The position numbers and the translations under genes are program-made. Below, piece by piece: positions 12,225-26,747 of a stretch of DNA of 64,000 bases. Position 1 is the stretch's first letter. The number at the start of each line of letters is the position of its first letter. Below the pieces are notes generated by a model that did not search any database, had not been told where the DNA came from, and saw nothing but the letters and a program-made list of their open reading frames with translations. The DNA lies in IMG/VR virus record IMGVR_UViG_3300020202_000064, positions 30,000 through 93,999 of that record; one strand, written 5' to 3'. This DNA is from a virus.

Positions 12225-12259
12225 AATCTGAATTACACGTAAGAATCAATCATTTAGCA

Positions 12260-12342
12260 TGGTGGTCAAGGTGGGACTCGAACCCACAAGCCGAAGCATA
12301 TGCACCTCAAGCATACGTGTATGCCAATTTCACCACATGACC
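12260..12342 (-). tRNA. tRNA-Leu(GAG)
   Basis: TATGC-TTGAGGT-GCATA, V-arm GCTTCGGC. Confidence 0.92.
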
Positions 12343-12381
12343 ATAACGGATTTTAACGTAGAAAGCCGCAAACGCACAATA

Positions 12382-12660: not shown

Positions 12661-12700
12661 AGGAAGAAGCCTTTCGGCTGAGGTTTGTATTGGTAGAAGA

Positions 12701-12780
12701 TGGGGTATACGACGGGGCTTAAACCCGCAGGGACCAAGCTTCACAGGCTTGTGCGTCTAATCAATTTCGCCACGTATACC
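12701..12780 (-). tRNA. tRNA-His(GTG)
   Basis: CAAGC-CTGTGAA-GCTTG; G-1:C73 extended acceptor. Confidence 0.88.
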
Positions 12781-12784
12781 ATAA

Positions 12785-12912
12785 CTAAGTTCATTTTTAT
12801 ATTGTCGCCTAAACCAGACTAGGCTACTTCCGCATATTGTAAATGGTGCGGAAGGTGGGATTTGAACGCCACGTATAACAATTTCCATGAAATTGGATGC
12901 TGTTAGAACTTA
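12785..12912 (-). ncRNA. Y-RNA-like (CAGC-motif) RNA with permuted tRNA module and internal ACCA
   Basis: TAAGTTC-TAA-CAGCAT...GTGGCGTTCAAATCCCAC (T arm), CTTCCGC-ACCA-TTTACAATAT-GCGGAAG (acceptor), TA-GCCT-AGTCTGGTTT-AGGC (D arm)...GAACTTAG. Confidence 0.85.
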
Positions 12913-12992
12913 AATTGGTTTTTGATTTTATTATAAATCGTCATTTTTCTTCGTGTAATCTTTTATGGCAGGACCATAAGGATTCGAAAAAG

Positions 12993-13718
12993 ATGATTAA
13001 ACTATTTACTGATAAAGAATTTAATTCGGCTAAATCGCGGGATTTACTACCTCTTAAATGCGAAAAATGTGGAAAAACTTTCCACAAGGCAAAACACAGA
13101 ATACAGGATGCCTTATCGACCAAGACGAAGCTTTTCTGGAAATTTTGTTCTAAACGATGCAGTGATGAACACTTCGAAACATCCATAGAAGTCGAATGTT
13201 GCCAGTGCAAACGGAAAACATTCAAAACCCCGTCAGAGATAAAAAAAGTAAGACGCCCATTTTGTTCACAATCTTGTGCAGCTTTATATAACAACACGCA
13301 TAAAACACACGGAACATCTCGTTCAAAACTAGAAAAATGGTTGGAATCTAAATTAATAACTGAATATCCCGAATTAGAATTTCATTTCTCAAGAAAAGAT
13401 GCTATCAACGGTGAACTAGATATTTATATTCCATCATTAAAATTGGCATTTGAGTTAAACGGGATTTTCCATTATGAACCAATTTATGGTAAGGAACAAT
13501 TAATCAAAATGCAGAACAACGATAAACGAAAGTTCCAAGCGTGTTTAGAAAATGGAATAGAACTATGTATTATAGATACAACGTCTCAAAAGTATTTTAA
13601 AGAAAATACCTCTTTAAAATTTCTTAATATCATCCGAGATATAATCGAAAGAAAAATGGCAGGACATGTAGGTGAGGAACCCACTTCTTCGCGTTTGGAG
13701 TGCGAGGCACATACCTAA
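12993..13718 (+). CDS. homing endonuclease: Zn-ribbon repeats plus Vsr/DUF559-like PD-(D/E)XK domain
   Basis: CEKCGK...FCSKRC, CCQC...FCSQSC; ELDIYIPSLKLAFELNGIFHY; C-terminus overlaps the antisense of tRNA-Trp. Confidence 0.8.
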   Translation: MIKLFTDKEFNSAKSRDLLPLKCEKCGKTFHKAKHRIQDALSTKTKLFWKFCSKRCSDEHFETSIEVECCQCKRKTFKTPSEIKKVRRPFCSQSCAALYNNTHKTHGTSRSKLEKWLESKLITEYPELEFHFSRKDAINGELDIYIPSLKLAFELNGIFHYEPIYGKEQLIKMQNNDKRKFQACLENGIELCIIDTTSQKYFKENTSLKFLNIIRDIIERKMAGHVGEEPTSSRLECEAHT

Positions 13719-13732
13719 TATACCAATGTCCT
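13657..13732 (-). tRNA. tRNA-Trp(CCA), atypical T-loop
   Basis: TCGCA-CTCCAAA-CGCGA; AGGACAT/ATGTCCT-GCCA; T-loop TTCCTCA. Confidence 0.8.
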
Positions 13733-13738
13733 ATAAAG

Positions 13739-13900
13739 TCATTTCTGACCATCTAAATATTTCTTGAACGCATCTTGATTTTTAATCGCCGCCCGAAGTT
13801 CTGGCGTCGTATCATCAATATACAACGGACATTGTACTGGTTCGTGATAACAGCCTTCGGCCAATATTTCTTTTATTTCTTCAATAGTCGTCTGATTCAT
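13739..13900 (-). CDS. small hypothetical protein
   Basis: MNQTTIEEIKEIL... in a tRNA spacer. Confidence 0.5.
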   Translation of the reverse strand: MNQTTIEEIKEILAEGCYHEPVQCPLYIDDTTPELRAAIKNQDAFKKYLDGQK

Positions 13901-13903
13901 AAT

Positions 13904-13980
13904 TGGTGCAAATGGAAGAAATCGAATCCTCAGTATAACTACGTTCGAAGCGTAGGTGGCTCTCCTGTGCCAGCATTTGC
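13904..13980 (-). tRNA. tRNA-Arg(TCG), atypical D arm
   Basis: CTACG-CTTCGAA-CGTAG; GCAAATG/CATTTGC-ACCA. Confidence 0.78.
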
Positions 13981-14011
13981 GTGTTTTAATTTTAGCTACG
14001 TATGTATTAAA

Positions 14012-14088
14012 TGGTGGGGGCCGAGCGAATTGAACGCTCACATCAAGATTTTCAATCTAGCATGCTCACCAGTTTACATCAAACCCCC
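14012..14088 (-). tRNA. tRNA-Phe(GAA)
   Basis: CTAGA-TTGAAAA-TCTTG. Confidence 0.85.
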
Positions 14089-14237
14089 AAAGGCTAGCAG
14101 CCACCCCACAACTTCGGGTATGTGACACCTGAAAGTCGGTTTCGCGCTATGCGCTAATCAAACACCGAACCTTTCCTTTATTGTAGTCCTTGTGGACTAT
14201 CCTTTCCTTTTCCTTACCTACGGTATTTAACCATAGG

Positions 14238-14423
14238 TTATGCGCGGTTACCAGCCGCGACTTTATATCCCGGTAACCAGCCGGGAAATTTGTGAAATTT
14301 ATACATAAACGGCGGATTTAATTCGTCATTCATTCTGTTACAGTGTTCTCTGAGTAATCTTTTTAAATATACAGACTTAATCCATTGGTCTATAAACTCG
14401 CGCGCTTTATCTTGTTTATTCAT
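14238..14423 (-). CDS. hypothetical protein
   Basis: 61 aa ORF in a spacer. Confidence 0.5.
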   Translation of the reverse strand: MNKQDKAREFIDQWIKSVYLKRLLREHCNRMNDELNPPFMYKFHKFPGWLPGYKVAAGNRA

Positions 14424-14541
14424 GAATATACTGGTGTGTCTTTTCGTTGGTCTCCGACTAAAATCAATATTGCTTTGACCGCCTCAGTGAAGATATTCTA
14501 TTCATCGGGTTTTCTGCGACCCACTCTCCTTTTATATTCAT

Positions 14542-14618
14542 TGGTAGTCGCAATGGGATTCGAACCCATACTGAAAAGTTTTTAAGACTTTTGCTTCTGC
14601 CGGTTGAGCGATGCGACC
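14542..14618 (-). tRNA. tRNA-Leu(TAA), short variable arm
   Basis: AAAGT-CTTAAAA-ACTTT. Confidence 0.88.
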
Positions 14619-14623
14619 ATAGC

Positions 14624-15187
14624 TTATTTCAGAGGGAATGCAACTGTATTTGTTGGGGCGCTATTGCCAGAAGAATTATAAGCGAACACACGATACCAAT
14701 ATGTACCAACGCCTATATTCGTATCAATAAATGTATTTATGTTAGCTGAAGTCGTACCTATAACAACAAAATTTTCCCCATCATTACTACGCTCTATTTT
14801 AAAACCAGTTTCGTTGCTGGAATTATCACTCCAAGTTAATGTTACTGACGATGGGACGCTTCTAACACTCACACTTTCTAATTTTAAATATGTATATAAA
14901 CTGTCAATTTTTCGCAATACTGTTTGTAAATCTGTATTTGTATTATTTTGATTTTCCTTCAAAGCCGCTAACTCTTGCAATGCCAAATCTCTCTCTTGTT
15001 GAGCTTGCGCTACAAGCTTTTCTTGATACACAGCATATAAATGCCATGCTATAATCTGAGAATTTTTTGCATCCCACGCGGATTGTGCTGGATAAGCGGG
15101 GCGAGGAACGGGGGTAATAGATGTAACTTGAGCTAATAAAACACTCGCCAAAGCAACAACGAAGAAACTAATAAGAATTTTTTTCAT
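14624..15187 (-). CDS. secreted fibronectin type III domain protein
   Basis: Signal peptide MKKILISFF...; LTWSDNSSNETGFKIERS...YWYRVFAYNSSGNS. Confidence 0.85.
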   Translation of the reverse strand: MKKILISFFVVALASVLLAQVTSITPVPRPAYPAQSAWDAKNSQIIAWHLYAVYQEKLVAQAQQERDLALQELAALKENQNNTNTDLQTVLRKIDSLYTYLKLESVSVRSVPSSVTLTWSDNSSNETGFKIERSNDGENFVVIGTTSANINTFIDTNIGVGTYWYRVFAYNSSGNSAPTNTVAFPLK

Positions 15188-15196
15188 AAAACAACT

Positions 15197-15272
15197 TGGT
15201 GCGATATAGGAGATTTGAACTCCTACCCCATGCTTGGAAGGCGCGTGTGCTGCCATTAAACACTAATATCGC
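15197..15272 (-). tRNA. tRNA-Gly(TCC)
   Basis: Loop CTTCCAA; GCGATAT/ATATCGC-ACCA. Confidence 0.88.
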
Positions 15273-15282
15273 AAAATGGGTA

Positions 15283-15438
15283 TTAGCCCAAGATAAATCC
15301 GAGTACGAAAGCAACTACTGTCGAAATTAACGTCACTTTCATGCTAACCTGCTTGGCAAGAAACTGCTGAGTTTCCTCTTTGGCTTCATGCTTTAAGCGC
15401 GCTTTTGCCTCTTCAACGTGTTCTTTTAAATCGCTCAT
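15283..15438 (-). CDS. small tail-anchored membrane protein (51 aa)
   Basis: Manual translation: MSDLKEHVEEAKARLKHEAKEETQQFLAKQVSMKVTLISTVVAFVLGFILG*; GTGTAA motif upstream. Confidence 0.55.
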   Translation of the reverse strand: MSDLKEHVEEAKARLKHEAKEETQQFLAKQVSMKVTLISTVVAFVLGFILG

Positions 15439-15586
15439 AGTATTGTTATGTTCAATCTAAATTACACTTTAAACTAGGGGCTTTACTCTAGCCCGACGGT
15501 ACAACAATCCACTGTTGCCATTGCGCCGCTTTTACATTAGCGGCAGAAAGCCCGCACATTTAAGCTGGCGGGGACTAACTATAGTC

Positions 15587-15662
15587 TGGTGGGCATGGCA
15601 GGAATCGAACCCGCAATCTTCACCGTGTAAAAGTGCCGCGTTAACCGTTACGCTACACGCCC
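15587..15662 (-). tRNA. tRNA-Val(TAC)
   Basis: Loop TTTACAC; GGGCGTG/CATGCCC-ACCA. Confidence 0.92.
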
Positions 15663-15664
15663 AT

Positions 15665-16029
15665 TTTCTATTCCAGTTTAGCCGCGATTCTGGTTTATCT
15701 CTACATTTCTCTAATCGGCTTTCGCCAATTCCCACCGTCAATAGATGGGTGCATCAACCCGGCCTCATCGATAAGCACTAATCTCAGCCTGTTTGACTTG
15801 CTACTACCATGAGGTATTAACGAATACGTGATAGGCTATGGTTTGTAAGCCATGCCGAGTATTCTCCCTATCGGTTGCTTTGTAGTCGCGAACTTCCTCT
15901 GACTTATGGAATGCGGGGTTCCTCTCTTTCGAGTTTGGCATACCGCATCTTACGTCCCTTTACGCACCATTCTCAGGCCGTGGCCTGATTAAAGGTTTCA
16001 CCTTTCGTCAGCGTAGAGTCGAATAGAAA
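15665..16029 (-). ncRNA. rnpB: RNase P RNA (compact, reduced S-domain)
   Basis: P1 TTTCTATTC/GAATAGAAA; CR-I GAGGAAGTTCGCGAC; GTAGCAAG; CR-IV TAGAGAAATG; CR-V ACCAGAATCGCGGCTA; P4 pairing (T)CGCGA/TCGCGG. Confidence 0.85.
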
Positions 16030-16081
16030 TTTTGCACCCCGGACGTAACAATCTATAGTCATTGGAATCCGGCCCGTCTCC

Positions 16082-16567
16082 CTATAGTGTTTGTGCGGCC
16101 ACCCTCGACCGTAAAGTAAATTCATAATGAAGCATCGTTGAACGGGACAATAACCCCGGCGACACTTCCCAAGCTTTCGTATTATTTAGTAAAGAAATTC
16201 CTGCGTGTTCAAACGCCGCATAAATCAATTCAGAGCAAAACCACTTGTCTTTCGAACCGCCCGATTCAGATTCACGAGAAAGGAAACGAAGTACCATGGT
16301 AATGTCGTACTTCTTACCCACTTGAGCATAAAGGAACTGGCTGATTTTACGGAATTGTTCCGACGTAACTTCAGTCGAATACATATCAATATATTCGTCC
16401 TTCTTAAATTTGTACTTCTGGAATTTACGAACACCGTAAAAACGGGTGGCCTCAATTACGTCTTTTTCCAATGATATACTTACATGTGAATATTTACTAC
16501 GAGTTTGCCAACGAATAATTTTATCAAAAATAGAGTTAGCTGAATGTAATCCAATGTAGATTTTCAT
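16082..16567 (-). CDS. permuted papain-like NlpC/P60 amidase (YiiX/YaeF-like)
   Basis: SKYSHV...GKKYD...KWFCSELI...VSPG. Confidence 0.85.
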   Translation of the reverse strand: MKIYIGLHSANSIFDKIIRWQTRSKYSHVSISLEKDVIEATRFYGVRKFQKYKFKKDEYIDMYSTEVTSEQFRKISQFLYAQVGKKYDITMVLRFLSRESESGGSKDKWFCSELIYAAFEHAGISLLNNTKAWEVSPGLLSRSTMLHYEFTLRSRVAAQTL

Positions 16568-16587
16568 ACATTAAGTTACACTAAATT

Positions 16588-16665
16588 TGGCGCGGGAGGT
16601 GGGCTTCGAACCCACAACCTTGAAATTTAGAGTTTCCTGCTCTGAACCAGTTGAGCTACTCCCGC
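16588..16665 (-). tRNA. amber suppressor tRNA (anticodon CTA)
   Basis: GCGGGAG-TA-GCTCAACTGGTTCAGAGC-A-GGAAA-CTCTAAA-TTTCA-AGGTT-GTGGG-TTCGAAG-CCCAC-CTCCCGC-GCCA; canonical cloverleaf. Confidence 0.9.
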
Positions 16666-16724
16666 AATAAGCCCGAATAAATCGGGCACTAAATTACTAT
16701 TTCTACGATGTATCCTATTTCAAA

Positions 16725-17003
16725 TCAATCACCCCCTTTCTTGCCGCTCGCGGCTCGAATATGGGCAGTGCCATCCGAAATATCTATATCAACATTTTTA
16801 AATCTCAAACTTCCCTTAGTATGTTGATTATCAGGGGTTTCTTTTGTGGAAAAGGGAACTTCGCAATCCACATGGTTAACGTAGTACGTTATACCTTTTG
16901 TCTTAATTACCCACGGGGCAATTCGACTATCGAACAAGTGTGCCTTATTAAAATGGAACACTGCTTCTTTACAATTCTGAACCTAATGTTCTTCCTATTT
17001 CAT
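16725..17003 (-). CDS. hypothetical phage protein, probably starting at 17003 with two in-frame TAG codons
   Basis: ATG AAA TAG GAA GAA CAT TAG GTT CAG AAT TGT AAA GAA GCA GTG TTC CAT TTT AAT AAG... is in frame with track ORF 16725..16961; GTGTAA motif 11 nt upstream of this ATG. Confidence 0.6.
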
Positions 17004-17082
17004 GTCAGTATATATTACACTTATTTTTGTTGTTCGTGCAAACTAAAATCTTCAATTTTACATCAAACCGAAGGTTTGAAAA

Positions 17083-17158
17083 TGGAGGCAGCGCCGTGAA
17101 TTTAACAACGGTTCTTCCAACTTTGCGGTCGGACGGATTAGCGTCTTCCTCCGCTGCC
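17083..17158 (-). tRNA. tRNA-Cys(GCA), atypical
   Basis: GGCAGCG/CGCTGCC-TCCA (U73); TCCGA-CCGCAAAG-TTGGA irregular loop; degenerate T arm. Confidence 0.65.
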
Positions 17159-17308
17159 ATATTTATAACCTAGCAGCCCCACTGCAACCCGTATAGCATA
17201 ACAATTTAGGTTAGAACTGTTCGTATGCCGATTACTTCATGATTAGGAGCAACCCTATTATTTTTCATACTACACCCGATGGTGCCACCGATTTTTGTCA
17301 TTATAAAT

Positions 17309-17384
17309 TGGTGTGCCGTGCGAGACTCGAACTCGCGATATCCAACTTGGCAAGCTGGCGCAATAGCCACTATGCGAACGACAC
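17309..17384 (-). tRNA. tRNA-Gly(GCC)
   Basis: CCAGC-TTGCCAA-GTTGG. Confidence 0.88.
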
Positions 17385-17433
17385 AGAAGAACGCCTCTTA
17401 ATCGGAGACGAGAATCGAAATTCTTTATTTTTA

Positions 17434-17508
17434 TGGTAGCACACGGCGGCGTTTGAATCCGCTGCTCCAACTTATGAGGATGGCGAGTTACCTATACTCT
17501 ACGGTGCA
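17434..17508 (-). tRNA. tRNA-Met(CAT), initiator-like
   Basis: Loop CTCATAA; mismatched 1:72; GAGT/ACTC D stem. Confidence 0.75.
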
Positions 17509-17549
17509 ATAAGGGGAATCGATATTGTTAGGTATCTATTCCCATCGTT

Positions 17550-17915
17550 TCAACCCTGCATCTTTTTCAACTTATCTTCTAACTGCTTTAATTGATATTC
17601 CAACTGATTCACTTTACCAGCATATTGCATGTTCTGGAATTGAACCAGAGCAATTTGTTTTTCAAGCTGTAATTTCTCGTTCAATAATTCATTATATTTA
17701 TCAGATACATCAGGATTTGCTTTTAACTTTGAAATCTCCAACTCCAATGAAGTAATTTTTTCTTTAAGAACATCTGATGCAGAAAGTTTTAAGAAAAAAC
17801 TATTAATAAATTCCAACTTGGTCTTTAAAATCGAAATTTCAGTATCAAGAGATTCAATTGTCGCTTTGAGTTGAAGGTTATTCGCTAATAAGGCGGTGCG
17901 TGTGACATAGGTCAT
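17550..17915 (-). CDS. coiled-coil hypothetical protein
   Basis: Heptad-rich 121 aa; GTGTAA motif upstream. Confidence 0.65.
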   Translation of the reverse strand: MTYVTRTALLANNLQLKATIESLDTEISILKTKLEFINSFFLKLSASDVLKEKITSLELEISKLKANPDVSDKYNELLNEKLQLEKQIALVQFQNMQYAGKVNQLEYQLKQLEDKLKKMQG

Positions 17916-17938
17916 ATATATAGTTACACCAAAAATAA

Positions 17939-18016
17939 TGGTGGCTACATAGGGATTCGAACCCTAAAAATTCACGTTCTAAGCGCGACACGTCTAGCCA
18001 GTTGCGTCATGTAGCC
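17939..18016 (-). tRNA. tRNA-Leu(TAG), short variable arm
   Basis: TCGCG-CTTAGAA-CGTGA. Confidence 0.88.
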
Positions 18017-18195
18017 TAATAGCACGCACAAGTTTTACGTTGTGCGGCTTTGTTGTCTTACTTATCGCGAGGACGGTATTCGTTGTCATAAATGACAATA
18101 AGACCGAGCATCACGAGGACAGAGAAGAAGGCAATCATCTTGCTTTCCTTTCTTGTTTTAGGTGCCGTCGTCCCGTAGGATAGGCGGCAGATAAA

Positions 18196-18272
18196 TGGCT
18201 GTCTTGTTTGAATTTGAATCAAAATATTTCGGGTCAGAGCCGAATGTAATAACCAAGTTATACGACAAGACA
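18196..18272 (-). tRNA. tRNA-Gln(CTG)
   Basis: TTCGG-CTCTGAC-CCGAA; U1:A72, G73. Confidence 0.88.
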
Positions 18273-18277
18273 ATAAC

Positions 18278-18402
18278 GATGCCCAAATCCATCAACGCTG
18301 GATAAACGCGAATTACTTTCATTCCACCTTTCGGCGCGGGCGTAATCGACCATTTTTACTTCACGTAGTAGTTGTTTTTATTTGATTTGCTGTGTGGGCG
18401 TC
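18278..18402 (-). ncRNA. Y-RNA-like (CAGC-motif) RNA, variant stem
   Basis: GACGCCC-ACA-CAGCAA...GGGCATC. Confidence 0.6.
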
Positions 18403-18440
18403 TACGAATCTACGATTCTATTATAAATCGAAGATTTAAT

Positions 18441-18531
18441 TGGCAGTCCTCCCCGGACTCGAACCGGGACATCTATTTCTAGATATGACAGCTTCAAAGG
18501 CTGTTGTGCTAACCAATTACACTAGAGGACA
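18441..18531 (-). tRNA. tRNA-Gln(TTG) with long variable arm
   Basis: ACAGC-CTTTGAA-GCTGT followed by an ATCTA-GAAA-TAGAT V-arm. Confidence 0.85.
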
Positions 18532-18579
18532 ATAAAATCGGTCATGATTTGCGTGTAATTAACATGAGTAAGTTAATTT

Positions 18580-19032
18580 ATGAGTAAATCATCAGAGGCC
18601 GTTAAAAAATGGAGAAAAGCAACTAAACAACGAATAATTGATGCTATGGGCAAACAGTGTCAATGTTGTGGGTATAATAGATGTAACGAGTGTTTAGATT
18701 TACATCATTTGGACCCAAACGAAAAGGAACTAAGTTTTGGAGCGATAAGGGCGAACCCAATCGCTTGGTCGAAAATTGTAGAAGAGTTAAGAAAATGTAT
18801 ATTAGTGTGTAGAAATTGCCATGGAGAAATACATAATAACAATCTTCCAATTCCAAACAACTATTGTAAATTTGACGAATCCTATTCAGAATACAAAATT
18901 GTATCCGAAGAACTTGCGTCTAAGTGTCCAAAATGCGGGGACCAAAAATTAACAATACATAAATTCTGTTCCCAGAATTGTGCAAAACGTGGACGTAAAT
19001 TGGCTATACAGGTTGGAGCCGCCCCAACATAA
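18580..19032 (+). CDS. HNH homing endonuclease
   Basis: CQCCGYNRCNECLDLHHLDP...KCILVCRNCHGEIH; C-terminus overlaps the antisense of tRNA-Asn. Confidence 0.88.
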   Translation: MSKSSEAVKKWRKATKQRIIDAMGKQCQCCGYNRCNECLDLHHLDPNEKELSFGAIRANPIAWSKIVEELRKCILVCRNCHGEIHNNNLPIPNNYCKFDESYSEYKIVSEELASKCPKCGDQKLTIHKFCSQNCAKRGRKLAIQVGAAPT

Positions 19033-19094
19033 GATTTTATTCTTCACTCGCTTAACAGGCGAAGCCAGCTAACTTAGCTATCTGGGTCTGCATA
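19001..19094 (-). tRNA. tRNA-Asn(GTT), atypical (long V-arm, odd T-loop)
   Basis: TTCGC-CTGTTAA-GCGAG; AAGA-ATAAAA-TCTT V-arm; GTTGG-GGCGGCT-CCAAC. Confidence 0.7.
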
Positions 19095-19099
19095 ATAGA

Positions 19100-19173
19100 T
19101 GGCTCCGGAAATTCGGGTCGAACGAATGATTTTTGGGTAACAGCCAAACGTGATGCCACTTCACTATACCGGA
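19100..19173 (-). tRNA. tRNA-Asn(GTT)
   Basis: TTTGG-CTGTTAC-CCAAA; TCCGG/CCGGA-GCCA. Confidence 0.85.
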
Positions 19174-19179
19174 ATAAAA

Positions 19180-19258
19180 CTAAGTTCCTTGTGCCTTTTA
19201 TTAACCGGTGGCAAAGCCCGTCTCCTGATTATGTCATAGATATTGCTGTATGAACTTA
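19180..19258 (-). ncRNA. Y-RNA-like (CAGC-motif) RNA
   Basis: TAAGTTC-ATA-CAGCAA...GAACTTAG. Confidence 0.78.
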
Positions 19259-19262
19259 AAAG

Positions 19263-19400
19263 TGGAACGTATGGGATTCGAACCCATATCGACGAACTTT
19301 ACGCCCGTCTCGTAAGATTATCTTATATATTCTTTTACCGGTGCGAATATATCACTTCATCAAACTACTTGTGGAGCTTTGACCATTAAGCTAACGTCCC
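19263..19400 (-). ncRNA. tRNA-like RNA with Ala identity elements and the anticodon arm replaced by an ~85 nt domain
   Basis: GGGACGT/ACGTTCC-A (G3:U70, A73); canonical D arm GCTT-AATGGTCA-AAGC; T arm ATGGG-TTCGAAT-CCCAT; no anticodon stem-loop. Confidence 0.65.
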
Positions 19401-19436
19401 ATAAATCGTAGATTTACATAAACCTACGGTTTAATA

Positions 19437-19583
19437 CTAAGCGCAACGCATTTACAGCGCGCGACTGAATGGCTTTTGTATTAGGCACCATCATTTCCTC
19501 GTGCAACCCGCCTCACTTCATCTTTCGATGGTGATTGGATGTTTGCACATCATCGATAAGTTTATTATCGCTGTATGCGCTTA
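19437..19583 (-). ncRNA. Y-RNA-like (CAGC-motif) RNA
   Basis: TAAGCGC-ATA-CAGCGA...GCGCTTAG. Confidence 0.78.
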
Positions 19584-19587
19584 AAAC

Positions 19588-19729
19588 CTAAGTATAACGA
19601 AAAGTTTAGGCTCTTTTCGCGTTCCTAAAAAGCATGGAGAAGCTTTTCAATCTAACAGTTATGGAATGTCAGCCGGTGCCGCCCCGAAGGGTAGCGTCTT
19701 GTTAAGATAAGGATTGCTGTATATACTTA
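19588..19729 (-). ncRNA. Y-RNA-like (CAGC-motif) RNA
   Basis: TAAGTAT-ATA-CAGCAA...ATACTTAG. Confidence 0.78.
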
Positions 19730-19821
19730 TGGCGGTGAGGGCGAGAATCGAACTCGCGGGGCAACTTTCGTCACCCTTTTGCTTTCCAAGCAAATGCATT
19801 AGGCCGCTCTGCCACCTCACC
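19730..19821 (-). tRNA. tRNA-Ser(GGA)
   Basis: TTTGC-TTGGAAA-GCAAA, long V-arm. Confidence 0.93.
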
Positions 19822-19825
19822 AAGA

Positions 19826-20026
19826 TTACGCAATTTCTGCGAATCGCTTTTTAAAATAATTACTGGTCTCGTCCGGGGTGTGCCGCAAGAACAGTTGCTC
19901 GTCAATCTCATCAAACGCTCTGAAATCACCATTAGATGCGGCAATCAACGCGTCGCTAAGTTCTGGCGAACATTCGAACCTAAAGCCGAATGAATCCCAG
20001 ATTTCTTTAAATCTTTCGTATGTCAT
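19826..20026 (-). CDS. hypothetical protein
   Basis: 66 aa ORF filling a tRNA spacer. Confidence 0.55.
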   Translation of the reverse strand: MTYERFKEIWDSFGFRFECSPELSDALIAASNGDFRAFDEIDEQLFLRHTPDETSNYFKKRFAEIA

Positions 20027-20029
20027 AAT

Positions 20030-20117
20030 TGGTGGTCCCGGTGGGATTCGAACCCACAGTGAGCTTACGCTTTCGGCTTAAGAGGCCGGACTAATCAACC
20101 GTTCTAGGCACGGAACC
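20030..20117 (-). tRNA. tRNA-Lys(CTT) with extended variable arm
   Basis: CGGC-CTCTTAA-GCCG then an AGC-GTAA-GCT V-arm. Confidence 0.8.
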
Positions 20118-20121
20118 AAAT

Positions 20122-20471
20122 TGGTGGAGATGGAGGGCTTCGATTCCCTCGTGTCCGATACTTCGTATTTCCATTCTTGTTACATGCTTAGAATCACTTG
20201 ATAATATCGTTTTCGGTTTGATTCTACCAAACGACATTTGACGGTTATATAATCAGCTTCTATCAACCAGTCAATTTTAAAGCTGATTCCCGATGATGAC
20301 GAGTGGCCCAATTTATCGGCGGTCAATTGGAACTCGGTTAGCCGCAATTAAGCAGCGTAAGCATAAACTTCTGTTTTCTTAGCGTTTATTTTGTGATACG
20401 TTTTACGACGTGGCATCATTGTCGGCATGGAATGTAAACCTACGTATTGGATAGAATCCAAATACATCCCC
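20122..20471 (-). ncRNA. ssrA: tmRNA
   Basis: GGGGATG...CATCTCC-ACCA (G3:U70); resume context ATAAAC-GCT; tag AKKTEVYAYAA*. Confidence 0.92.
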
Positions 20472-20482
20472 AAAAGAAATAT

Positions 20483-20560
20483 TGGTGCGCCCCGAGGGAG
20501 TTGAACCCTCACGATGGTCCGCTTAAAAGGCGGCTGCTCGTCCACTGTAGCTTGAGGCGC
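20483..20560 (-). tRNA. tRNA-Lys(TTT)
   Basis: CCGC-CTTTTAA-GCGG. Confidence 0.85.
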
Positions 20561-20569
20561 ATATTAAAA

Positions 20570-20644
20570 TGGAGTCCCTAGCGGCTTACGAGACCGCGTA
20601 TGAATCTTTTGCAGAGATTTGCATTTCCTCTTTGCTATAGGGAC
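20570..20644 (-). tRNA. tRNA-Cys(GCA)
   Basis: AATCT-CTGCAAA-AGATT; U73. Confidence 0.8.
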
Positions 20645-20652
20645 ATAAAAAT

Positions 20653-20755
20653 TGGCGGAAGAGGCAAGATTCGAACTCGCACGCGCTATGGTTTACATAT
20701 CGCCCTCGCATTTCAAGTGCGCTGCCGCTAGGCCATATCCTCGGCTTACTCTTCC
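20653..20755 (-). tRNA. tRNA-Ser(TGA)
   Basis: CGCA-CTTGAAA-TGCG; enlarged D loop and V-arm. Confidence 0.85.
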
Positions 20756-20757
20756 AT

Positions 20758-20815
20758 CTAAGCGGGCGCAATTTTCCCTTTCGGGATGGCGATTTATATT
20801 TTGCTGTATCCGCTT
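20758..20815 (-). ncRNA. Y-RNA-like (CAGC-motif) RNA, short
   Basis: AAGCGG-ATA-CAGCAA...CCC-GAAA-GGG...CCGCTTAG. Confidence 0.75.
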
Positions 20816-20873
20816 GTTGCTTTAATTGCGCGAAATCTTAAAACCTTCGGTTTTATTATAAATCGAAGATTTA

Positions 20874-20950
20874 TGGTGGCCGAGGGTGGGTTTGAACCAC
20901 CAACCGTTCGTCTATCAAACGAATGCACTAGCCAATTGTGCTACACGGCC
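20874..20950 (-). tRNA. tRNA-Ile(GAT)
   Basis: TTCGT-TTGATAG-ACGAA. Confidence 0.88.
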
Positions 20951-20955
20951 ATTAT

Positions 20956-21048
20956 CTAAGCTCTATTATTGTGCGGGCATCGAATCCCGCTCAATTCGTG
21001 TTTTTGAAACGAATTTTTATCCATTTAAGGTTTTGCTGTGAGAGCTTA
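20956..21048 (-). ncRNA. Y-RNA-like (CAGC-motif) RNA with a T-arm-like hairpin
   Basis: TAAGCTC-TCA-CAGCAA...GCGGG-ATTCGATG-CCCGC...GAGCTTAG. Confidence 0.78.
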
Positions 21049-21088
21049 TTGTGGAGCTTACTCCACCGTTCCAGCAAAGCTGGAAATA

Positions 21089-21145
21089 CTAAGCGCATTT
21101 TGTTTTTCATTAATCATTGAATTTTTAATTCGCTGTTAGCGCTTA
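21089..21145 (-). ncRNA. Y-RNA-like (CAGC-motif) RNA, minimal
   Basis: TAAGCGC-TAA-CAGCGA...A-rich...GCGCTTAG. Confidence 0.75.
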
Positions 21146-21328
21146 TAAGGAAACGAAAACTTGTTATGTTTTTGGCTTCTGATTCGAAGCATATTTGACG
21201 AAACGTTTATAATTTTTTAAATCGCGGCTAGCGTCTGTGCGCCGGGAATATGGACCGTAATCTAAATCCCCCCATTGATTTTTAAACCAAAACTTTCCAT
21301 CTCGCTTGAAAATTTTCATACTCTAAAA

Positions 21329-21403
21329 TGGCGGGACCAACGAGTGCTACCCTCGCTTCTGTATCGTGACAGGATACCGCTTTTGTTGATAAGCTATGGC
21401 CCC
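21329..21403 (-). tRNA. tRNA-Asp(GTC)
   Basis: GTATC-CTGTCAC-GATAC; atypical D and T loops. Confidence 0.8.
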
Positions 21404-21510
21404 AAAATTACAAAGGTCACTCCATCCCTTTGAATGGCAGTTTATAAACGTGGAAACGTTTAAAGGTTTTATTTTTCGCCGGTTCTGCTTTACCCTGAAC
21501 CTAGAGAAGT

Positions 21511-21589
21511 TGGTAGCGCGTGTGGGGCTCGAACCCACGCATGACCGATTTGAAAGACCGGTGACTTGAACCTGCTTGTCAAACGCGCC
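21511..21589 (-). tRNA. tRNA-Glu(TTC)
   Basis: CCGGT-CTTTCAA-ATCGG. Confidence 0.9.
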
Positions 21590-21725
21590 GTAAAGATATT
21601 CTTTTGTATCCATCTATTCGGATTAACAACAACCCCAATGTTCGATACAAATAAACTACAATAACAGTTGTTTTTGATATATTATTATAGAAGAACTGAG
21701 GTGGAAATAAGTGTAATTACACTAT

Positions 21726-22301
21726 ATGTCCACTAAAATATTATCTGAATTTTCTCGATGTGACTCCTTTGGAACGCAGCGTAAATACGTTTCTTACCAT
21801 TGTACTCGATGCGGTGTCGAACATTCCAAACCAAAACGTAACTTTTGGTTAGATAGACCCAACTTCTGTTCCGTTAACTGTGCAAGAGAACATCAAAAAA
21901 TTTTGCATTCATTTGAAGCTGAGTGCGCATGGTGCGCAAATAAATTCCACAAAAAGATATCAACAAAGGGAAATAGTCGTTCCGGTTTATATTTTTGTTC
22001 CAGACTATGCAAAGACAAGGCTCAAAGCTTGGAAGGTGGTATAAAGGAAATACAGCCAAATCATTACGGAGAAATTAAAAAGAATTATCGCGAAACTGCA
22101 TTTAAAAATCTGCCAGCACGCTGTAATCGATGCGACTTTGCTGCTTACCCAGAGATACTAGAGGTTCATCACAAAGACCATAATCACCATAATAATACCG
22201 TAGATAATTTGGAAATTTTATGTCCAAACTGCCACGAAATTCATCACTTCGAAACGAAATCGGGTAAATATGCCAAAAGTGGTGGACTGGAAGGGGATTG
22301 A
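21726..22301 (+). CDS. HNH homing endonuclease with Zn-ribbon repeats
   Basis: FCSVNC, FCSRLC repeats; CNRC...LEVHHKD...NLEILCPNCHEIHH; ends inside the antisense of tRNA-Ala. Confidence 0.88.
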   Translation: MSTKILSEFSRCDSFGTQRKYVSYHCTRCGVEHSKPKRNFWLDRPNFCSVNCAREHQKILHSFEAECAWCANKFHKKISTKGNSRSGLYFCSRLCKDKAQSLEGGIKEIQPNHYGEIKKNYRETAFKNLPARCNRCDFAAYPEILEVHHKDHNHHNNTVDNLEILCPNCHEIHHFETKSGKYAKSGGLEGD

Positions 22302-22355
22302 ACCCTCCACACGAACATTGCAAATGTCTGTCGCCTCCGAGGAACATGCCAGCCC
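22280..22355 (-). tRNA. tRNA-Ala(TGC)
   Basis: Loop TTTGCAA; G3:U70. Confidence 0.85.
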
Positions 22356-22358
22356 AAC

Positions 22359-22435
22359 TGGTGTTTCCACTCGGAATTGAACCAAGATGATACAGTTTAG
22401 GAAACTGTTGCCTTATCCAGTTAGGCGATGGAAAC
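22359..22435 (-). tRNA. tRNA-Arg(CCT)
   Basis: ACAGT-TTCCTAA-ACTGT. Confidence 0.9.
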
Positions 22436-22436
22436 G

Positions 22437-22670
22437 TTAACTCAAAATTACACCCAAATCATTAACTTCGTTTTCAAACTCGTCGAACGTCGGTTCAATA
22501 TCTTCCATTGAGGCATCGATTCTTTTCTGCTTCATGCGACGATACTGAGTGTGACAGACTGCCAATCTTTGTTTATCATTACCATATTCCTTTTGCATCA
22601 AATCCGAATCCATACAACGATTGATGAATTCAGTCTGTTTTTCATTGGACTTTGGTGTAGGCAGTGGCAT
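22437..22670 (-). CDS. small phage hypothetical protein
   Basis: MPLPTPKSNEKQTEFINRCM...QRLAVC; GTGTAA motif upstream. Confidence 0.7.
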   Translation of the reverse strand: MPLPTPKSNEKQTEFINRCMDSDLMQKEYGNDKQRLAVCHTQYRRMKQKRIDASMEDIEPTFDEFENEVNDLGVILS

Positions 22671-22700
22671 ACACTATATTACACTAAATGTCACCTAAAA

Positions 22701-22787
22701 TGGTGGTCCCGGTGGGATTTGAACCCACAGTGCCCGAAGGCGGCAGATTTACAGTCTGCTACGTCTACCAATTGACGCGTCGTGACC
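22701..22787 (-). tRNA. tRNA-Tyr(GTA)
   Basis: GCAGA-CTGTAAA-TCTGC, V-arm GCCTTCGGGC. Confidence 0.88.
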
Positions 22788-22945
22788 ATCATACGAACTA
22801 CGGTACATATGATTTATCATCACCCCAATGCCTTGGGCCGATTTTTTGCGAGGTTGTACATTCCTCCGTTCGTATTCTGTATTAGGGATGCCTCCCTTTT
22901 AACATATGAGAGATAGGTGAGTTAATTACACTCACTTATCTTTGA

Positions 22946-23039
22946 CTAAGTATATTTTTATCACCCCATAAATTTGAAATGGCGGGGTGTGAAGGAATTG
23001 AACCTTCTGTTTCCAGAAAAGTCATGCTGTTAATACTTA
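22946..23039 (-). ncRNA. Y-RNA-like (CAGC-motif) RNA with permuted T arm/acceptor and internal GCCA
   Basis: TAAGTAT-TAA-CAGCAT...GAAGG-TTCAATT-CCTTC-ACACCCC-GCCA-TTTCAAATTTAT-GGGGTG...ATACTTAG. Confidence 0.82.
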
Positions 23040-23040
23040 A

Positions 23041-23117
23041 TGGTGCGGTCAGAGGGACTCGAACCCCCACTAAAAGATTCGTAATCTTTCGTGCTAATTC
23101 CATTACACTATGTCCGC
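23041..23117 (-). tRNA. tRNA-Arg(ACG)
   Basis: AAAGA-TTACGAA-TCTTT. Confidence 0.92.
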
Positions 23118-23167
23118 ATATCGACGGGCCTACCCGCCGTGGTTTAACCAATTTTTAGGAAAAATAA

Positions 23168-23290
23168 CTAAGTTCGTTTTTTTCGTTGTTCTGCTTTAAA
23201 CTAACTTGCTGAAATTGAAATTGGTGGCAAGTGAAGTGCGCTACGCTCCATCTCCGTCTTATGTGATGATTTAACCGCTGTTAGAACTTA
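23168..23290 (-). ncRNA. Y-RNA-like (CAGC-motif) RNA with permuted tRNA module and internal ACCA
   Basis: TAAGTTC-TAA-CAGCGG...ACTTGCC-ACCA-ATTTCAATTTC-AGCAAGT-TA-GTTT-AAAGCA-GAAC...GAACTTAG. Confidence 0.8.
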
Positions 23291-23291
23291 A

Positions 23292-25069: not shown

Positions 25070-25098
25070 AATGAAACCCGTCGCTGTTATACGACGGG
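25070..25098 (-). terminator. probable intrinsic terminator of the Ro60-like gene
   Basis: CCCGTCG-TATAACAG-CGACGGG followed by TTTCATTATTT. Confidence 0.55.
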
Positions 25099-25109: not shown

Positions 25110-26645
25110 TTAAGCCTTAATCGGTTCGTACCTTTCGGTATTCACCGTCTGCAAGAACATGTCCCATGGGGAAGTAATCTTGCCACTCATAATTGTCTTG
25201 AGGATGCTTGGGGAAGCACCCGAACACAACATGACACCCTTTTCGTCAAACTTCACCGGACTGTCTGAGTAGGCGTTAACCTGCCAGAATACAATATCAG
25301 GAAGTTTATATCCTGCTTGCGCATATTGCCGCTTAATTGCTTCGTGGTTTGTTCCACCATTAACACAATTAAACTGCATATCAGATATGATAACAATCTT
25401 TGATGGCATTTCAGACTGTGGCACGTTATTTTGGATAGCGTGGCGAAGAATTGCTTGGAACGAAGATTGTACATTCGTGGAGCCGCCCCAATCAGCCGAA
25501 TTAAGGTTAATCAATTTCTCCTTGAGATTTCCGCCAACAACCTTCTGCAAACGGGAGTCGTCTGAGAAAGTTAGGAAATAACCGTTGAATGCGCCGCGAT
25601 TACGCTCTGCCGTATAAAGGGCGAGTGAAACGCAGATATCGATTGGGCTTACACTTTCGCCATAACGAACACCCAAATTTCCCATGGAGCCGGAAACGTC
25701 CGCAACAACAAGGATATTGTCGTTCTTCCCTTCTGTGTAGTCGGGAAGTGCATTCCATTGCGCTTCGATTGTACGAAGGTCGTTACCGTCCTTCTGTGTA
25801 ATTCCGCGCATCAAATCATACGGATATAGCGTTGCAGAATTAATCTTCGCTTCGCCCTTCTCGACCTTGGTCAAGAACTTCTCATAGCGCTTTGGGTCGT
25901 GCTTGTTAAAGGCAGACTTGTAAATAAGCGCAGCACGAGATGGTACTTGCTCAAAGTTAATCTTGCTCCATTCACCACTGGTCATCAACCGTTCAACGAT
26001 ACCGATTTCCTCACGAAGACCGGACAACATCTTACGATATGCCTTTGGTGACATTTTCATTGCGGCGCGAACCTTTTCAGCCAAACGACGTGTCGTCGCG
26101 CTGGAAGCCTGCGCAGATGGTGCCCATTTTGCAGCCAATGTAATCGCTTCGCCCTTTGCCTTCTTATAAGCATCGGTCTTCAATTGGGACGCAACGAAAA
26201 CCAATGCATCCTTCTCCAATGGAGTGCCCTCCAAGGATTCAAGAACATTGTCGAAACGGGTATATTCAGGAACGTGCTGAATAAGCTTCTTTGCCACAGG
26301 CGCGTCATTCTTCGCGAGCCAGTTAAGACCCAAGCGAAAAAGACGACGTTCACCCTGTCCGCCGCGCACGTCACCCAAATAGAATAACGTCCTTAGTGCA
26401 AGGGTTTTATCTTCTGCATATGCGGCGCTGAAAAGCTTTGTAACTTCGGCATCGGCTTGATTGCGCAATGCGCCACCTCGCGAGAACAAGTCCAGCAAGG
26501 ATGTGCCAGTGGTTGAATGTGATACTGCGCCGTTTAAGGTTGTAGTATCTTTCGTTTGCATAGCGCTAATAAGCGCATTCTGCTTCTTAGGGGTTGCAGT
26601 GTTACGGGTAAACTGCCCCAATGAGTTTCTCTTTATATTCTTCAT
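25110..26645 (-). CDS. Ro60/TROVE-like helical + vWA protein (DUF2828-like)
   Basis: T.NGA.SHSTTG..LLDLF; DVRGGQGERRLF; AAKWAP; INFEQVPSRA; LYPYDL; MIDAS VADVSGSM; DWGGSTN; ISDMQF; IVFWQV. Confidence 0.88.
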   Translation of the reverse strand: MKNIKRNSLGQFTRNTATPKKQNALISAMQTKDTTTLNGAVSHSTTGTSLLDLFSRGGALRNQADAEVTKLFSAAYAEDKTLALRTLFYLGDVRGGQGERRLFRLGLNWLAKNDAPVAKKLIQHVPEYTRFDNVLESLEGTPLEKDALVFVASQLKTDAYKKAKGEAITLAAKWAPSAQASSATTRRLAEKVRAAMKMSPKAYRKMLSGLREEIGIVERLMTSGEWSKINFEQVPSRAALIYKSAFNKHDPKRYEKFLTKVEKGEAKINSATLYPYDLMRGITQKDGNDLRTIEAQWNALPDYTEGKNDNILVVADVSGSMGNLGVRYGESVSPIDICVSLALYTAERNRGAFNGYFLTFSDDSRLQKVVGGNLKEKLINLNSADWGGSTNVQSSFQAILRHAIQNNVPQSEMPSKIVIISDMQFNCVNGGTNHEAIKRQYAQAGYKLPDIVFWQVNAYSDSPVKFDEKGVMLCSGASPSILKTIMSGKITSPWDMFLQTVNTERYEPIKA

Positions 26646-26648
26646 AAA

Positions 26649-26685
26649 CTAAGTAATTTTTAATTGTTAATGCTGACATTACTTA
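26649..26685 (-). promoter_or_regulatory. minimal CAGC-motif stem in the 5' leader of the Ro60-like gene
   Basis: TAAGTAA-TGT-CAGCAT...TTACTTAG-TTT-ATG; same architecture as the 11 ncRNA units. Confidence 0.75.
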
Positions 26686-26747
26686 AATAACTAAATTCTA
26701 CGTTGTAGGACATTTTAGTGTCCGTCAAGACATTTGTGCAAATTATT

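What the first reader, a model, noticed from the sequence alone, without database searches (positions are those of the whole stretch)
26643..26685. Minimal copy of the ncRNA motif 3 nt upstream of the Ro60-like start codon: likely translational autoregulation
The leader reads TAAGTAA-TGT-CAGCAT-TAACAATTAAAAA-TTACTTAG-TTT-ATG. This is the same stem/3-nt/CAGC layout with its own compensatory pairs (TAA/TTA), covering the ribosome-loading region. It is the direct sequence link between the motif and this protein. Inference: protein not titrated by the ncRNAs binds its own mRNA leader and represses translation, as ribosomal proteins do.
Basis: partly seen in the sequence, partly recalled or inferred. 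Interest (0 to 1): 0.88.

Follow-up and report, generated by a model that had tools for sequence, protein, structure and literature searches.

The report
Partner-RNA hairpin in Ro60-like gene leader
A 38-base hairpin just before the start codon of a phage's Ro60-shaped protein gene is a real, minimal copy of the small RNAs that accompany this gene in many phages, so the protein probably binds its own message, though nothing yet shows that this throttles its synthesis.

Summary
Window 26686-26649 (minus strand) reads UUAAGUAA-UGU-CAGC-loop-AAAAA-UUACUUA-G, followed by UUU-AUG. This is the same layout as the 11 other units in this phage's tRNA array.

It is not chance. The strict pattern occurs 9 times, all on the minus strand, against 0 in 150 simulated windows. 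A covariance model built only from other phages finds the 11 units plus this one (18.1 bits; E 0.11 window-wide, 2.9e-4 within the leader).

The key new result is comparative. In 30 of 84 DUF2828 homologue loci a unit ends within 30 nt of the start codon, against 3 of 458 control ORFs. At least 17 different compensated stems are involved. Cultured Synechococcus phage B3 is one case, and in two relatives sigma-70-like promoters sit just upstream of the units.

The protein model matches Ro60 over its full length.

Autoregulation is plausible from position alone: the hairpin spans -41 to -4 in a Shine-Dalgarno-poor phage. It is unproven. The known habit of Y RNAs lying upstream of, and co-transcribed with, Ro60 genes explains the conservation about as well. 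About half of the homologues lack a leader unit.

This scan had already noted the RNA family in three other genomes. I rate this a new variant of a known kind.

The parts
26649..26686 (-). Leader unit, a minimal handle RNA. P1 5' strand 26685-26679 (UAAGUAA), with U26686 able to wobble-pair with G26649. Spacer UGU 26678-26676. CAGC 26675-26672. Loop 26671-26662. A-run 26661-26657. P1 3' strand 26656-26650 (UUACUUA). Family-invariant G at 26649.
   Evidence: Sequence; descriptor; model R2 18.1 bits, full-length alignment; simulation.
26643..26648 (-). UUU spacer (26648-26646) and the AUG start codon (26645-26643) of the Ro60-like gene.
   Evidence: An in-frame stop lies just upstream, and the N-terminal alignment supports this start.
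25110..26645 (-). Gene for a Ro60-shaped protein of 511 aa (Pfam DUF2828 + DUF7788), with a DxSGS MIDAS-type motif in its vWA part.
   Evidence: Pfam. AlphaFold2 model with pLDDT 88 and pTM 0.87. The top 13 Foldseek hits are all Ro60/TROVE, E 3e-7, TM 0.58-0.61. Conserved DxSGS columns.
26695..26730 (-). Promoter-like stretch. TCTTGACG lies at 26730-26723, 36 nt before the unit, followed by weak -10 candidates TACAAC (26707-26702) and TAGAAT (26700-26695). The predicted transcription start is 2-20 nt upstream of the unit.
   Evidence: The same octamer occurs in other intergenic regions (23650, 2702). Relatives L001 and L009 have strong sigma-70-like promoters at the same relative place. These are consensus matches only; no start site has been mapped.
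25077..25098 (-). Terminator-like GC hairpin followed by a T-rich tail, 12 nt after the stop codon. It would make the gene a one-gene transcription unit.
10447..23291 (-). The 11 other units of the same family, inside the tRNA/tmRNA array: 10447-10561, 12785-12913, 18277-18403, 19180-19259, 19437-19584, 19588-19730, 20758-20817, 20956-21049, 21089-21146, 22946-23040, 23168-23291. These are the presumed trans-acting partner RNAs.
   Evidence: Model R2 hits, all on the minus strand; descriptor; tRNAs.

Best explanation
The 38-nt hairpin is the gene-proximal member of a widespread family of small handle RNAs that travel with DUF2828 (Ro60-shaped) genes in phages. It is transcribed as the 5' end of the protein's own mRNA, in the order promoter, about 7-20 nt, unit, UUU, AUG.

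The family handle has four parts: a closing stem, a 3-nt spacer plus CAGC on the 5' strand, an A-rich 3' strand, and a terminal G. It is the presumed docking site of the protein.

A protein molecule bound to the leader copy would sit on nucleotides -41 to -4. In a phage that does not use Shine-Dalgarno sequences, that would block the 30S subunit from an initiation region that must be open. Synthesis would then fall once free protein exceeds the pool of free handle RNAs, giving negative feedback by target mimicry. The same contact loads the first protein molecules onto an RNA in cis.

Shown here: family membership, conserved position, same-strand co-orientation, the Ro60-like fold, and overlap with the initiation region.

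Inferred: that the protein binds the handle, that the unit stays on the mRNA, and that binding represses translation.
For: - Family membership and non-chance occurrence.
- Conserved position: a unit ends within 30 nt of the start codon in 30/84 homologue loci against 3/458 control ORFs (Fisher p about 1e-23, not corrected for relatedness). Distances cluster at 5-12 and 17-28 nt.
- In Shine-Dalgarno-using relatives the unit's last G is the first G of GGAG (CAACTT|GGAGaaaaattATG).
- At least 17 different compensated P1 helices occur among 37 leader-proximal units.
- All 137 model hits in 612 kb lie on the gene's strand.
- Leader units occur in most deep clades of the protein tree, including the window's own clade (L001, L009, L011, L016) and cultured Synechococcus phage B3, where the unit ends 7 nt before the ATG.
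- Sigma-70-like promoters lie just before the units in L001 (TTGACA-16-TAGTAT) and L009 (TTGACA-17-TATGAT), and TTGACG lies at the same distance in the window. This places the units in the 5' UTR.
- The hairpin alone is weak (-4.8 kcal/mol), so any block would depend on a bound protein. The pairing probability of -15..-1 ranks 54th of 58 ORFs.
- The phage is Shine-Dalgarno-poor (13/58).
- The protein has a Ro60 fold, and a phage Ro60 binds RNAs encoded upstream of its gene in vitro (PMC12135203).
Against: - There is no binding, reporter or transcript-end data.
- 42 of 84 homologues have no unit within 150 nt upstream. These include a clade with a promoter directly before the gene and a clade with a different small hairpin. 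Cluster-L mycobacteriophages carry the units downstream of the gene.
- Relatives often have 2-3 tandem units, the distal ones too far from the start to act as operators.
- In several relatives 17-55 nt, including a free Shine-Dalgarno sequence, separate the unit from the ATG.
- Units sit equally tightly against tRNA genes, so short spacing may only reflect compact phage DNA.
- Nothing in the leader units' sequence sets them apart from free units, for example as weaker sites.
- The model score is modest: E 0.11 window-wide, and R1 missed the leader.
Confidence: 0.42

Rival explanations
1. The leader unit is a plain partner-RNA gene in an RNA-protein operon. It is one more, minimal, trans-acting handle RNA that is co-transcribed with the protein gene, cut off the precursor, and has no selected role in controlling translation. 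Its place next to the ATG would be inherited from an ancestral layout of promoter, one or more units, then the ORF.
For: - 2-3 tandem units precede the gene in many relatives, behind one promoter.
- Minimal 40-60-nt units are the usual free form elsewhere.
- Y RNAs upstream of rsr are processed from one precursor in M. smegmatis and D. radiodurans (PMC4201824).
- Yrl1 and Yrl2 lie upstream of the Thermus phage phiLo Ro60 gene (PMC12135203).
- Units are packed just as tightly against tRNA genes.
- Leader units show no distinguishing sequence feature.
Against: - The window phage already has 11 units released by tRNA processing, whereas the leader copy has no flanking tRNA to provide cleavage sites.
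- Cleavage at the terminal G would leave a 3-nt leader (UUU-AUG) here and would cut into the GGAG in the cyanophage-like clade, which should harm translation.
- If the protein binds the handle at all, a copy 3 nt from the AUG can hardly be neutral.
Confidence: 0.35
2. The element acts on the mRNA without the Ro60-like protein. It would be a 5'-terminal hairpin that protects the message from 5'-end-dependent decay, or a recognition site for a host or phage RNase.
For: The predicted start site is only a few nucleotides before the hairpin, in the window and in L001. 5'-terminal stem-loops are a well-known stabiliser of bacterial mRNAs (established knowledge).
Against: A generic stabiliser does not need the conserved spacer-CAGC, A-rich strand and terminal G shared with the tRNA-array units. 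The hairpin is very weak (-4.8 kcal/mol). The element is specific to this one gene family.
Confidence: 0.1
3. The protein acts positively in cis. Bound to the leader handle, it would stabilise its own mRNA or shield it from PNPase or other nucleases, giving feed-forward rather than repression.
For: Ro60 stabilises the Y RNAs it binds (established knowledge). The phiLo Ro60-Yrl complexes slowed PNPase in vitro (PMC12135203).
Against: The site overlaps the initiation region, so steric hindrance of the ribosome is the simpler outcome. There are no data either way.
Confidence: 0.08
4. The match is a chance AT-rich hairpin.
For: The fold energy is no better than shuffles. Model R1 missed it.
Against: There were 0 matches in 150 simulated windows against 9 observed. 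Model R2 gives E 2.9e-4 in the leader. Syntenic copies with compensated stems occur in at least 30 homologue loci.
Confidence: 0.02

Closest known systems
Y RNAs encoded next to Ro60/Rsr genes: D. radiodurans Yrn1/Yrn2, M. smegmatis YrlA/YrlB (PMC4201824), and Thermus phage phiLo Yrl1/Yrl2 (PMC12135203)
   Same: Small RNAs whose 5' and 3' ends form a stem lie directly upstream of, and on the same strand as, the gene for a Ro60-fold ring protein. They are made from the same precursor transcript. In phiLo they bind the phage protein in vitro.
   Different: The protein here is DUF2828/DUF7788, not a Pfam TROVE match, and is related to Ro60 only at fold level. The handle has a spacer-CAGC/A-rich internal loop, not the Y RNA helix or CGAA motif. 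Rfam Y_RNA and YrlA models do not match. The leader copy has no effector or tRNA-like module and ends 3 nt from the AUG. No feedback role has been reported for any Y RNA.
Translational autoregulation by target mimicry: ribosomal proteins such as S8, L1 and L20 on their own operon leaders, the MS2/PP7 coat protein-replicase operator, T4 RegA, and gp43 (established knowledge)
   Same: A copy of the protein's RNA target sits on or beside the ribosome-binding region of its own mRNA. Free protein not taken up by the main target would bind there and block initiation. The hairpin is weak without the protein.
   Different: Binding and repression are untested here. In many relatives there are several tandem copies, or a free Shine-Dalgarno sequence after the copy. 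About half of the family lacks a leader copy altogether.
Class I RNAs of dictyostelid social amoebae (PMC7919456)
   Same: They are 42-65-nt RNAs with a short covarying stem joining the 5' and 3' ends, a conserved motif directly after the 5' stem strand, a conserved AAG start and a CUGU-like end, and a variable remainder. The phage units start (U)AAG or UAG, end CUUG or CUAG, and carry NNN-CAGCAA after the 5' strand.
   Different: They are eukaryotic, have their own promoters, and are not known to sit in an mRNA leader. Their known binding partner is an RRM protein (Rnp1A). I did not verify the 11-nt sequence itself; the lead came from an earlier scan note and from memory.

Membership tests
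DUF2828-associated handle RNA family (uncatalogued; defined here by models R1 and R2) | A closing stem P1 of 6-8 bp joining the 5' and 3' ends, kept by compensatory changes | tested here: met
   UAAGUAA/UUACUUA, 7 Watson-Crick pairs plus a possible U-G. The inner three pairs differ from those of every other window unit. In relatives 98.9% of cells are paired and 6 of 7 pairs covary, although those units were chosen for having a stem.
DUF2828-associated handle RNA family (uncatalogued; defined here by models R1 and R2) | A 3-nt spacer followed by the invariant CAGC directly after the 5' strand of P1 | tested here: met
   UGU-CAGC at 26678-26672. CAGC is invariant in 68 aligned units.
DUF2828-associated handle RNA family (uncatalogued; defined here by models R1 and R2) | An A-rich strand before the 3' strand of P1, and an unpaired G right after it | tested here: met
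   AAAAA at 26661-26657 and G at 26649. The G is invariant in alignments A2 and A3.
DUF2828-associated handle RNA family (uncatalogued; defined here by models R1 and R2) | A significant score against a covariance model built without the sequence under test | tested here: inconclusive
   R2 gives 18.1 bits, E 0.11 over the window and 2.9e-4 over the leader. The leader ranks 7th among 12 true units. R1 gave no full-length hit.
DUF2828-associated handle RNA family (uncatalogued; defined here by models R1 and R2) | Same strand as, and close to, a DUF2828 gene | tested here: met
   The unit ends 3 nt from the start codon, on the same strand. All 137 hits in relatives lie on the gene's strand.
Y RNA / YrlA (Rfam RF00019, RF02553) | A match to the Rfam covariance models, which include the conserved Ro-binding helix (and, for YrlA, the tRNA-like T and D arms) | tested here: not met
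   There was no hit at gathering score in the window and none up to E 10 in 25000-26800. The leader has no room for T or D arms.
Translational operator by target mimicry | The operator resembles the protein's main RNA target | tested here: met
   The layout is the same as in the 11 array units. That these units are the protein's target is itself inferred from co-occurrence.
Translational operator by target mimicry | The operator overlaps the ribosome-binding region | tested here: met
   The unit spans -41 to -4, with no Shine-Dalgarno sequence. The phage is Shine-Dalgarno-poor. The pairing probability of -15..-1 is 0.64, rank 54 of 58.
Translational operator by target mimicry | The protein binds the operator and represses translation | not testable with these tools
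   This needs EMSA, toeprinting or a reporter. The complex predictor does not take RNA.
Ro60/TROVE proteins | A HEAT-repeat ring plus a vWA domain with a MIDAS motif | tested here: met
   The AlphaFold2 model (pLDDT 88) aligns over its full length to 1yvr, 2nvo, 2i91, 9kop and 9l5y, with TM up to 0.61. DxSGS is conserved.
Ro60/TROVE proteins | Sequence-level membership (Pfam TROVE, PF05731) | tested here: not met
   Pfam gives DUF2828 + DUF7788 only. A profile search against PDB sequences gives TROVE proteins at E 0.7.

The most novel reading that the evidence does not exclude
The mRNA of a phage Ro60-like protein carries its own Y-RNA-like handle as its 5' end. The message would therefore both encode the protein and serve as its first binding partner. 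The protein would load in cis and shut off its own translation once free handle RNAs are saturated. This would be the first translational feedback loop described for the Ro60 superfamily, and it may be ancestral to a large part of the phage DUF2828 family, since leader units occur in most deep clades.
Probability: 0.35. Interest if true: 0.75.

Novelty: new variant of a known kind. Interest (0 to 1): 0.58.

Why it matters
Ro60-Y RNA particles are well known from autoimmunity and RNA quality control, but how the balance between protein and RNA is set is not understood.

Here a Ro60-shaped protein family that is common in phages (705 INPHARED phage records match it; 566 IMG/VR stretches encode a relative) keeps a copy of its partner-RNA handle in its own 5' UTR in a large share of its members. 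That gives a concrete and easily tested hypothesis for such a balance. It also points to culturable systems for testing it, namely Synechococcus phage B3, Bacillus phage PK-3 and cluster-L mycobacteriophages.

Even if there is no feedback, the conserved gene-proximal copy is the most direct sequence evidence that these uncatalogued RNAs and DUF2828 proteins belong together.

Tried and rejected
- Fold energy as evidence: the hairpin is no more stable than shuffles, so I did not use it.
- Model R1, built from 38 units of one register: it found only a partial A-rich hit at the leader. The window's P1 is one pair shorter between the conserved AG and the loop. R2, built from all 137 hits, recovered the leader.
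- Rfam at gathering and at loose thresholds: no family matches any unit.
- Sequence-only profile search against the PDB: Ro60 was not significant. The fold search was needed.
- A promoter inside the unit giving a leaderless mRNA: no acceptable -35/-10 pair exists there, so I rejected it.
- A downstream start codon (M29): rejected because it would cut into the conserved N-terminal helix.
- A DNA-level operator or inverted repeat: unlikely, given the 137:0 strand bias, the asymmetric loop and the G-U pairs.
- Features that might mark leader units as weaker sites (spacer base, CAGCAU versus CAGCAA, loop length): none is consistent.
- Literature: the term 'DUF2828' gives no relevant paper, and I found no paper on Ro60 autoregulation.

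Full report
WHAT IS THERE

The window is part of a 94-kb IMG/VR phage record that CheckV rates about 46% complete. It carries 31 tRNA genes and a tmRNA gene on the minus strand.

The ORF 25110-26645(-) encodes a 511-aa protein with Pfam DUF2828 and DUF7788.

The ATG at 26645 is the first start after an in-frame TAG. It is also the only start that keeps the conserved N-terminal helix. Relatives L009, L011 and L016 have similar basic N-terminal extensions.

IS IT MORE THAN CHANCE?

The hairpin itself is weak: -4.8 kcal/mol, z -0.66 against shuffles. Thermodynamics therefore says nothing, and the case rests on pattern and comparison.

The strict descriptor taken from the other units is TAAG-N3-N3-CAGC, then the complement of the first N3, then CTTAG. 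It occurs 9 times in the window, always on the minus strand, and one of the 9 is the leader. None occurred in 150 simulated windows.

I then built covariance models only from units of other phages. R1 used 38 units and missed the leader. In this phage P1 is one pair shorter between the conserved AG and the loop, and the leader's loop is short.

R2 was built from the 137 hits of R1 in 84 homologue loci. Its 12 best window hits are exactly the 11 units of the tRNA array plus the leader. All are on the minus strand and aligned full length. The leader scores 18.1 bits, with E 0.11 for the whole window and 2.9e-4 for the 161-nt leader region. Accepted units at 12785-12913 and 23168-23291 score the same or lower.

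A search of IMG/VR with the protein and then with a protein alignment gave 87 loci. The protein also matches 705 INPHARED phage records.

All 137 R1 hits with E <= 1 lie on the strand of the DUF2828 gene and none on the other strand.

I combined the model hits with a simple descriptor scan. A unit ends within 30 nt of the homologue's start codon in 30 of 84 non-redundant loci, and within 60 nt in 37 of 84. For other same-strand ORFs of the same loci the figures are 3 and 6 of 458. Fisher p is about 1e-23, but this is not corrected for relatedness. The count is conservative, because by eye L004, L017, L025, L032, L039 and L043 also have a leader unit that the filters missed.

The 37 leader-proximal units use at least 17 different P1 helices, all compensated.

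On a protein tree, leader units occur in most deep clades, including the window's own clade (L001, L009, L011, L016). They are absent from two clades. One has a promoter of the TTG...TAnnTTTG type directly before the gene. The other has a different small hairpin (CCUCUUGUCCAAGAGG) in the leader.

Among cultured phages:
- Synechococcus phage B3 has two tandem units, the second ending 7 nt before the ATG of gp345.
- Bacillus phage PK-3 has its nearest unit 85 nt upstream.
- Mycobacterium phage AvadaKedavra, whose gene is annotated 'Ro-like RNA binding protein', has three units downstream of the gene.
- A T4-like Citrobacter phage has none.

ARCHITECTURE

In L001 a sigma-70-like promoter (TTGACA-16-TAGTAT) is followed within a few nucleotides by two tandem units, the second ending 2 nt before the ATG. 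In L009, TTGACA-17-TATGAT is followed by three tandem units, a Shine-Dalgarno sequence and the ATG.

In the window, TCTTGACG lies 36 nt before the unit, the same distance as in L001, but the -10 candidates are weak. A terminator-like hairpin follows the stop codon.

The likely layout is therefore promoter, one or more units, ORF, terminator, with a single unit here. The promoter calls are consensus matches only; no start site is mapped.

In the cyanophage-like clade the unit's invariant last G is the first G of the GGAG Shine-Dalgarno sequence (CAACUU|GGAGAAAAAUU|AUG). In the window and in L001 only 2-3 nt separate the unit from the AUG.

The window phage rarely uses Shine-Dalgarno sequences (13 of 58 ORFs), so initiation should depend on an open A/U-rich leader. 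The predicted pairing of -15..-1 ranks 54th of 58 ORFs.

THE PROTEIN

A 36-sequence alignment gave an AlphaFold2 model with pLDDT 88 and pTM 0.87. Its 13 best PDB matches are all Ro60/TROVE structures aligned over the full length: Xenopus, human, Deinococcus Rsr and Thermus phage phiLo, with E down to 3e-7 and TM up to 0.61 at 12-17% identity.

Sequence profiles alone do not reach Ro60. 'Ro60-like' therefore holds at fold level but not at Pfam-family level.

HOW IT MOST LIKELY WORKS

The handle is shared by all units, it co-occurs with the gene across very different phages, and it lies on the gene's strand. The handle is therefore the probable docking site of the protein, although this is inferred and not shown.

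A copy occupying -41 to -4 of the protein's own mRNA would place a bound protein inside the ribosome's footprint. The expected outcome is negative feedback, as with ribosomal proteins or the MS2 coat protein. Because the bare hairpin is weak, any block would depend on the protein. I give this 0.42.

The main rival (0.35) is that the unit is simply the last partner-RNA gene of an RNA-protein operon and is cut off the precursor. This is the known pattern for Y RNAs upstream of rsr (PMC4201824) and for Yrl1/Yrl2 upstream of the phiLo Ro60 gene (PMC12135203). It fits the 2-3 tandem units in relatives and the fact that 40-60-nt cargo-less units are the normal free form elsewhere.

Two points count against the rival. 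The leader copy has no flanking tRNA to supply cleavage sites. Cleavage at the terminal G would also leave a 3-nt leader here and would cut into the Shine-Dalgarno sequence in other clades.

The two readings are not exclusive. Lesser rivals are a protein-independent 5' stabiliser or RNase site (0.1), a positive cis effect (0.08) and chance (0.02).

COMPARISON WITH WHAT IS KNOWN, AND NOVELTY

No Rfam 15 family matches the units. The term 'DUF2828' returns no relevant paper, and I found no report of Ro60 autoregulation.

The gene order (partner RNAs upstream of a Ro60-fold gene) is known. Feedback by target mimicry is a classical mechanism. Their combination in a Ro60-type system would be new, so I rate this a new variant of a known kind.

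Earlier notes of this scan had already described the RNA family next to DUF2828 genes in three other genomes, and one of them mentions copies at gene starts. The family as such is therefore not new to the scan. One note pointed to dictyostelid Class I RNAs. The paper confirms a similar build: 42-65 nt, a covarying terminal stem, a motif directly after the 5' strand, an AAG start and a CUGU end. I did not verify the motif sequence itself.

VERDICT

The link between motif and gene is strongly supported. Autoregulation is plausible, testable and unproven.

Noticed in passing
window 25077-25098 (-): The terminator-like hairpin right after the DUF2828 stop codon (CCCGTCG-TATAACAG-CGACGGG plus a T-rich tail) contains TAACAGCGA. 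This is the same nonamer as the spacer-plus-core of the unit at 21146-21089. It could be coincidence or a decayed unit.
   Followed up: no
window 9406-9427, 16565-16586, 22668-22689 (+ coordinates; motif on the minus strand), weaker at 17915 and 15256: A repeated motif, ATTTAGTGTAAnTTAnnGT, ends directly in the ATG of small ORFs inside the tRNA array. It may be a promoter for near-leaderless mRNAs or a shared initiation or regulatory site.
   Followed up: partly
window 26748-27416 (-): A free-standing HNH endonuclease gene (HNH_5/HNH) sits between the DNA polymerase III alpha gene (27696-30323) and the Ro60-like gene. It has its own TTGACA-18-TATGCT promoter-like site at 27441-27412.
   Followed up: no
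L056, L059, L064, L065, L067, L075, L080, L084-L086, about 30-50 nt before the homologue's ATG: A clade of phages of roughly 100-200 kb lacks the CAGC unit in the leader. It has instead a conserved small hairpin, UUCCUCUUGUCCAAGAGGAG, just before the Shine-Dalgarno sequence and after a TATAAT-rich stretch. This may be a different leader element for the same gene.
   Followed up: no
L006/L007 4682-7275, L005: The DUF2828 homologue appears to be interrupted. Residues from about 36 onward match at 4730 and residues from 97 onward resume at about 6001, with roughly 1 kb in between. This suggests an inserted intron, intein or homing-endonuclease element.
   Followed up: no
L001 5855-5922; L003 1057-1118: Some units replace the otherwise invariant CAGC by CUGC (the first unit of L001) or CCGC (the leader-proximal unit of L003). 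The second position of the core therefore tolerates change.
   Followed up: no
L045 2871-2929; L025 2827-2921; L043 2815-2920: In some relatives the leader-proximal unit itself carries a T-arm-like insert (for example ctGGGTTCAAATCCCag). Cargo-bearing units can therefore also occupy the position next to the start codon.
   Followed up: no
window 16588-16665 (-): A tRNA with anticodon CUA (an amber suppressor; ARAGORN calls it Pyl) lies within the array. Another finding of this scan has already examined it.
   Followed up: no
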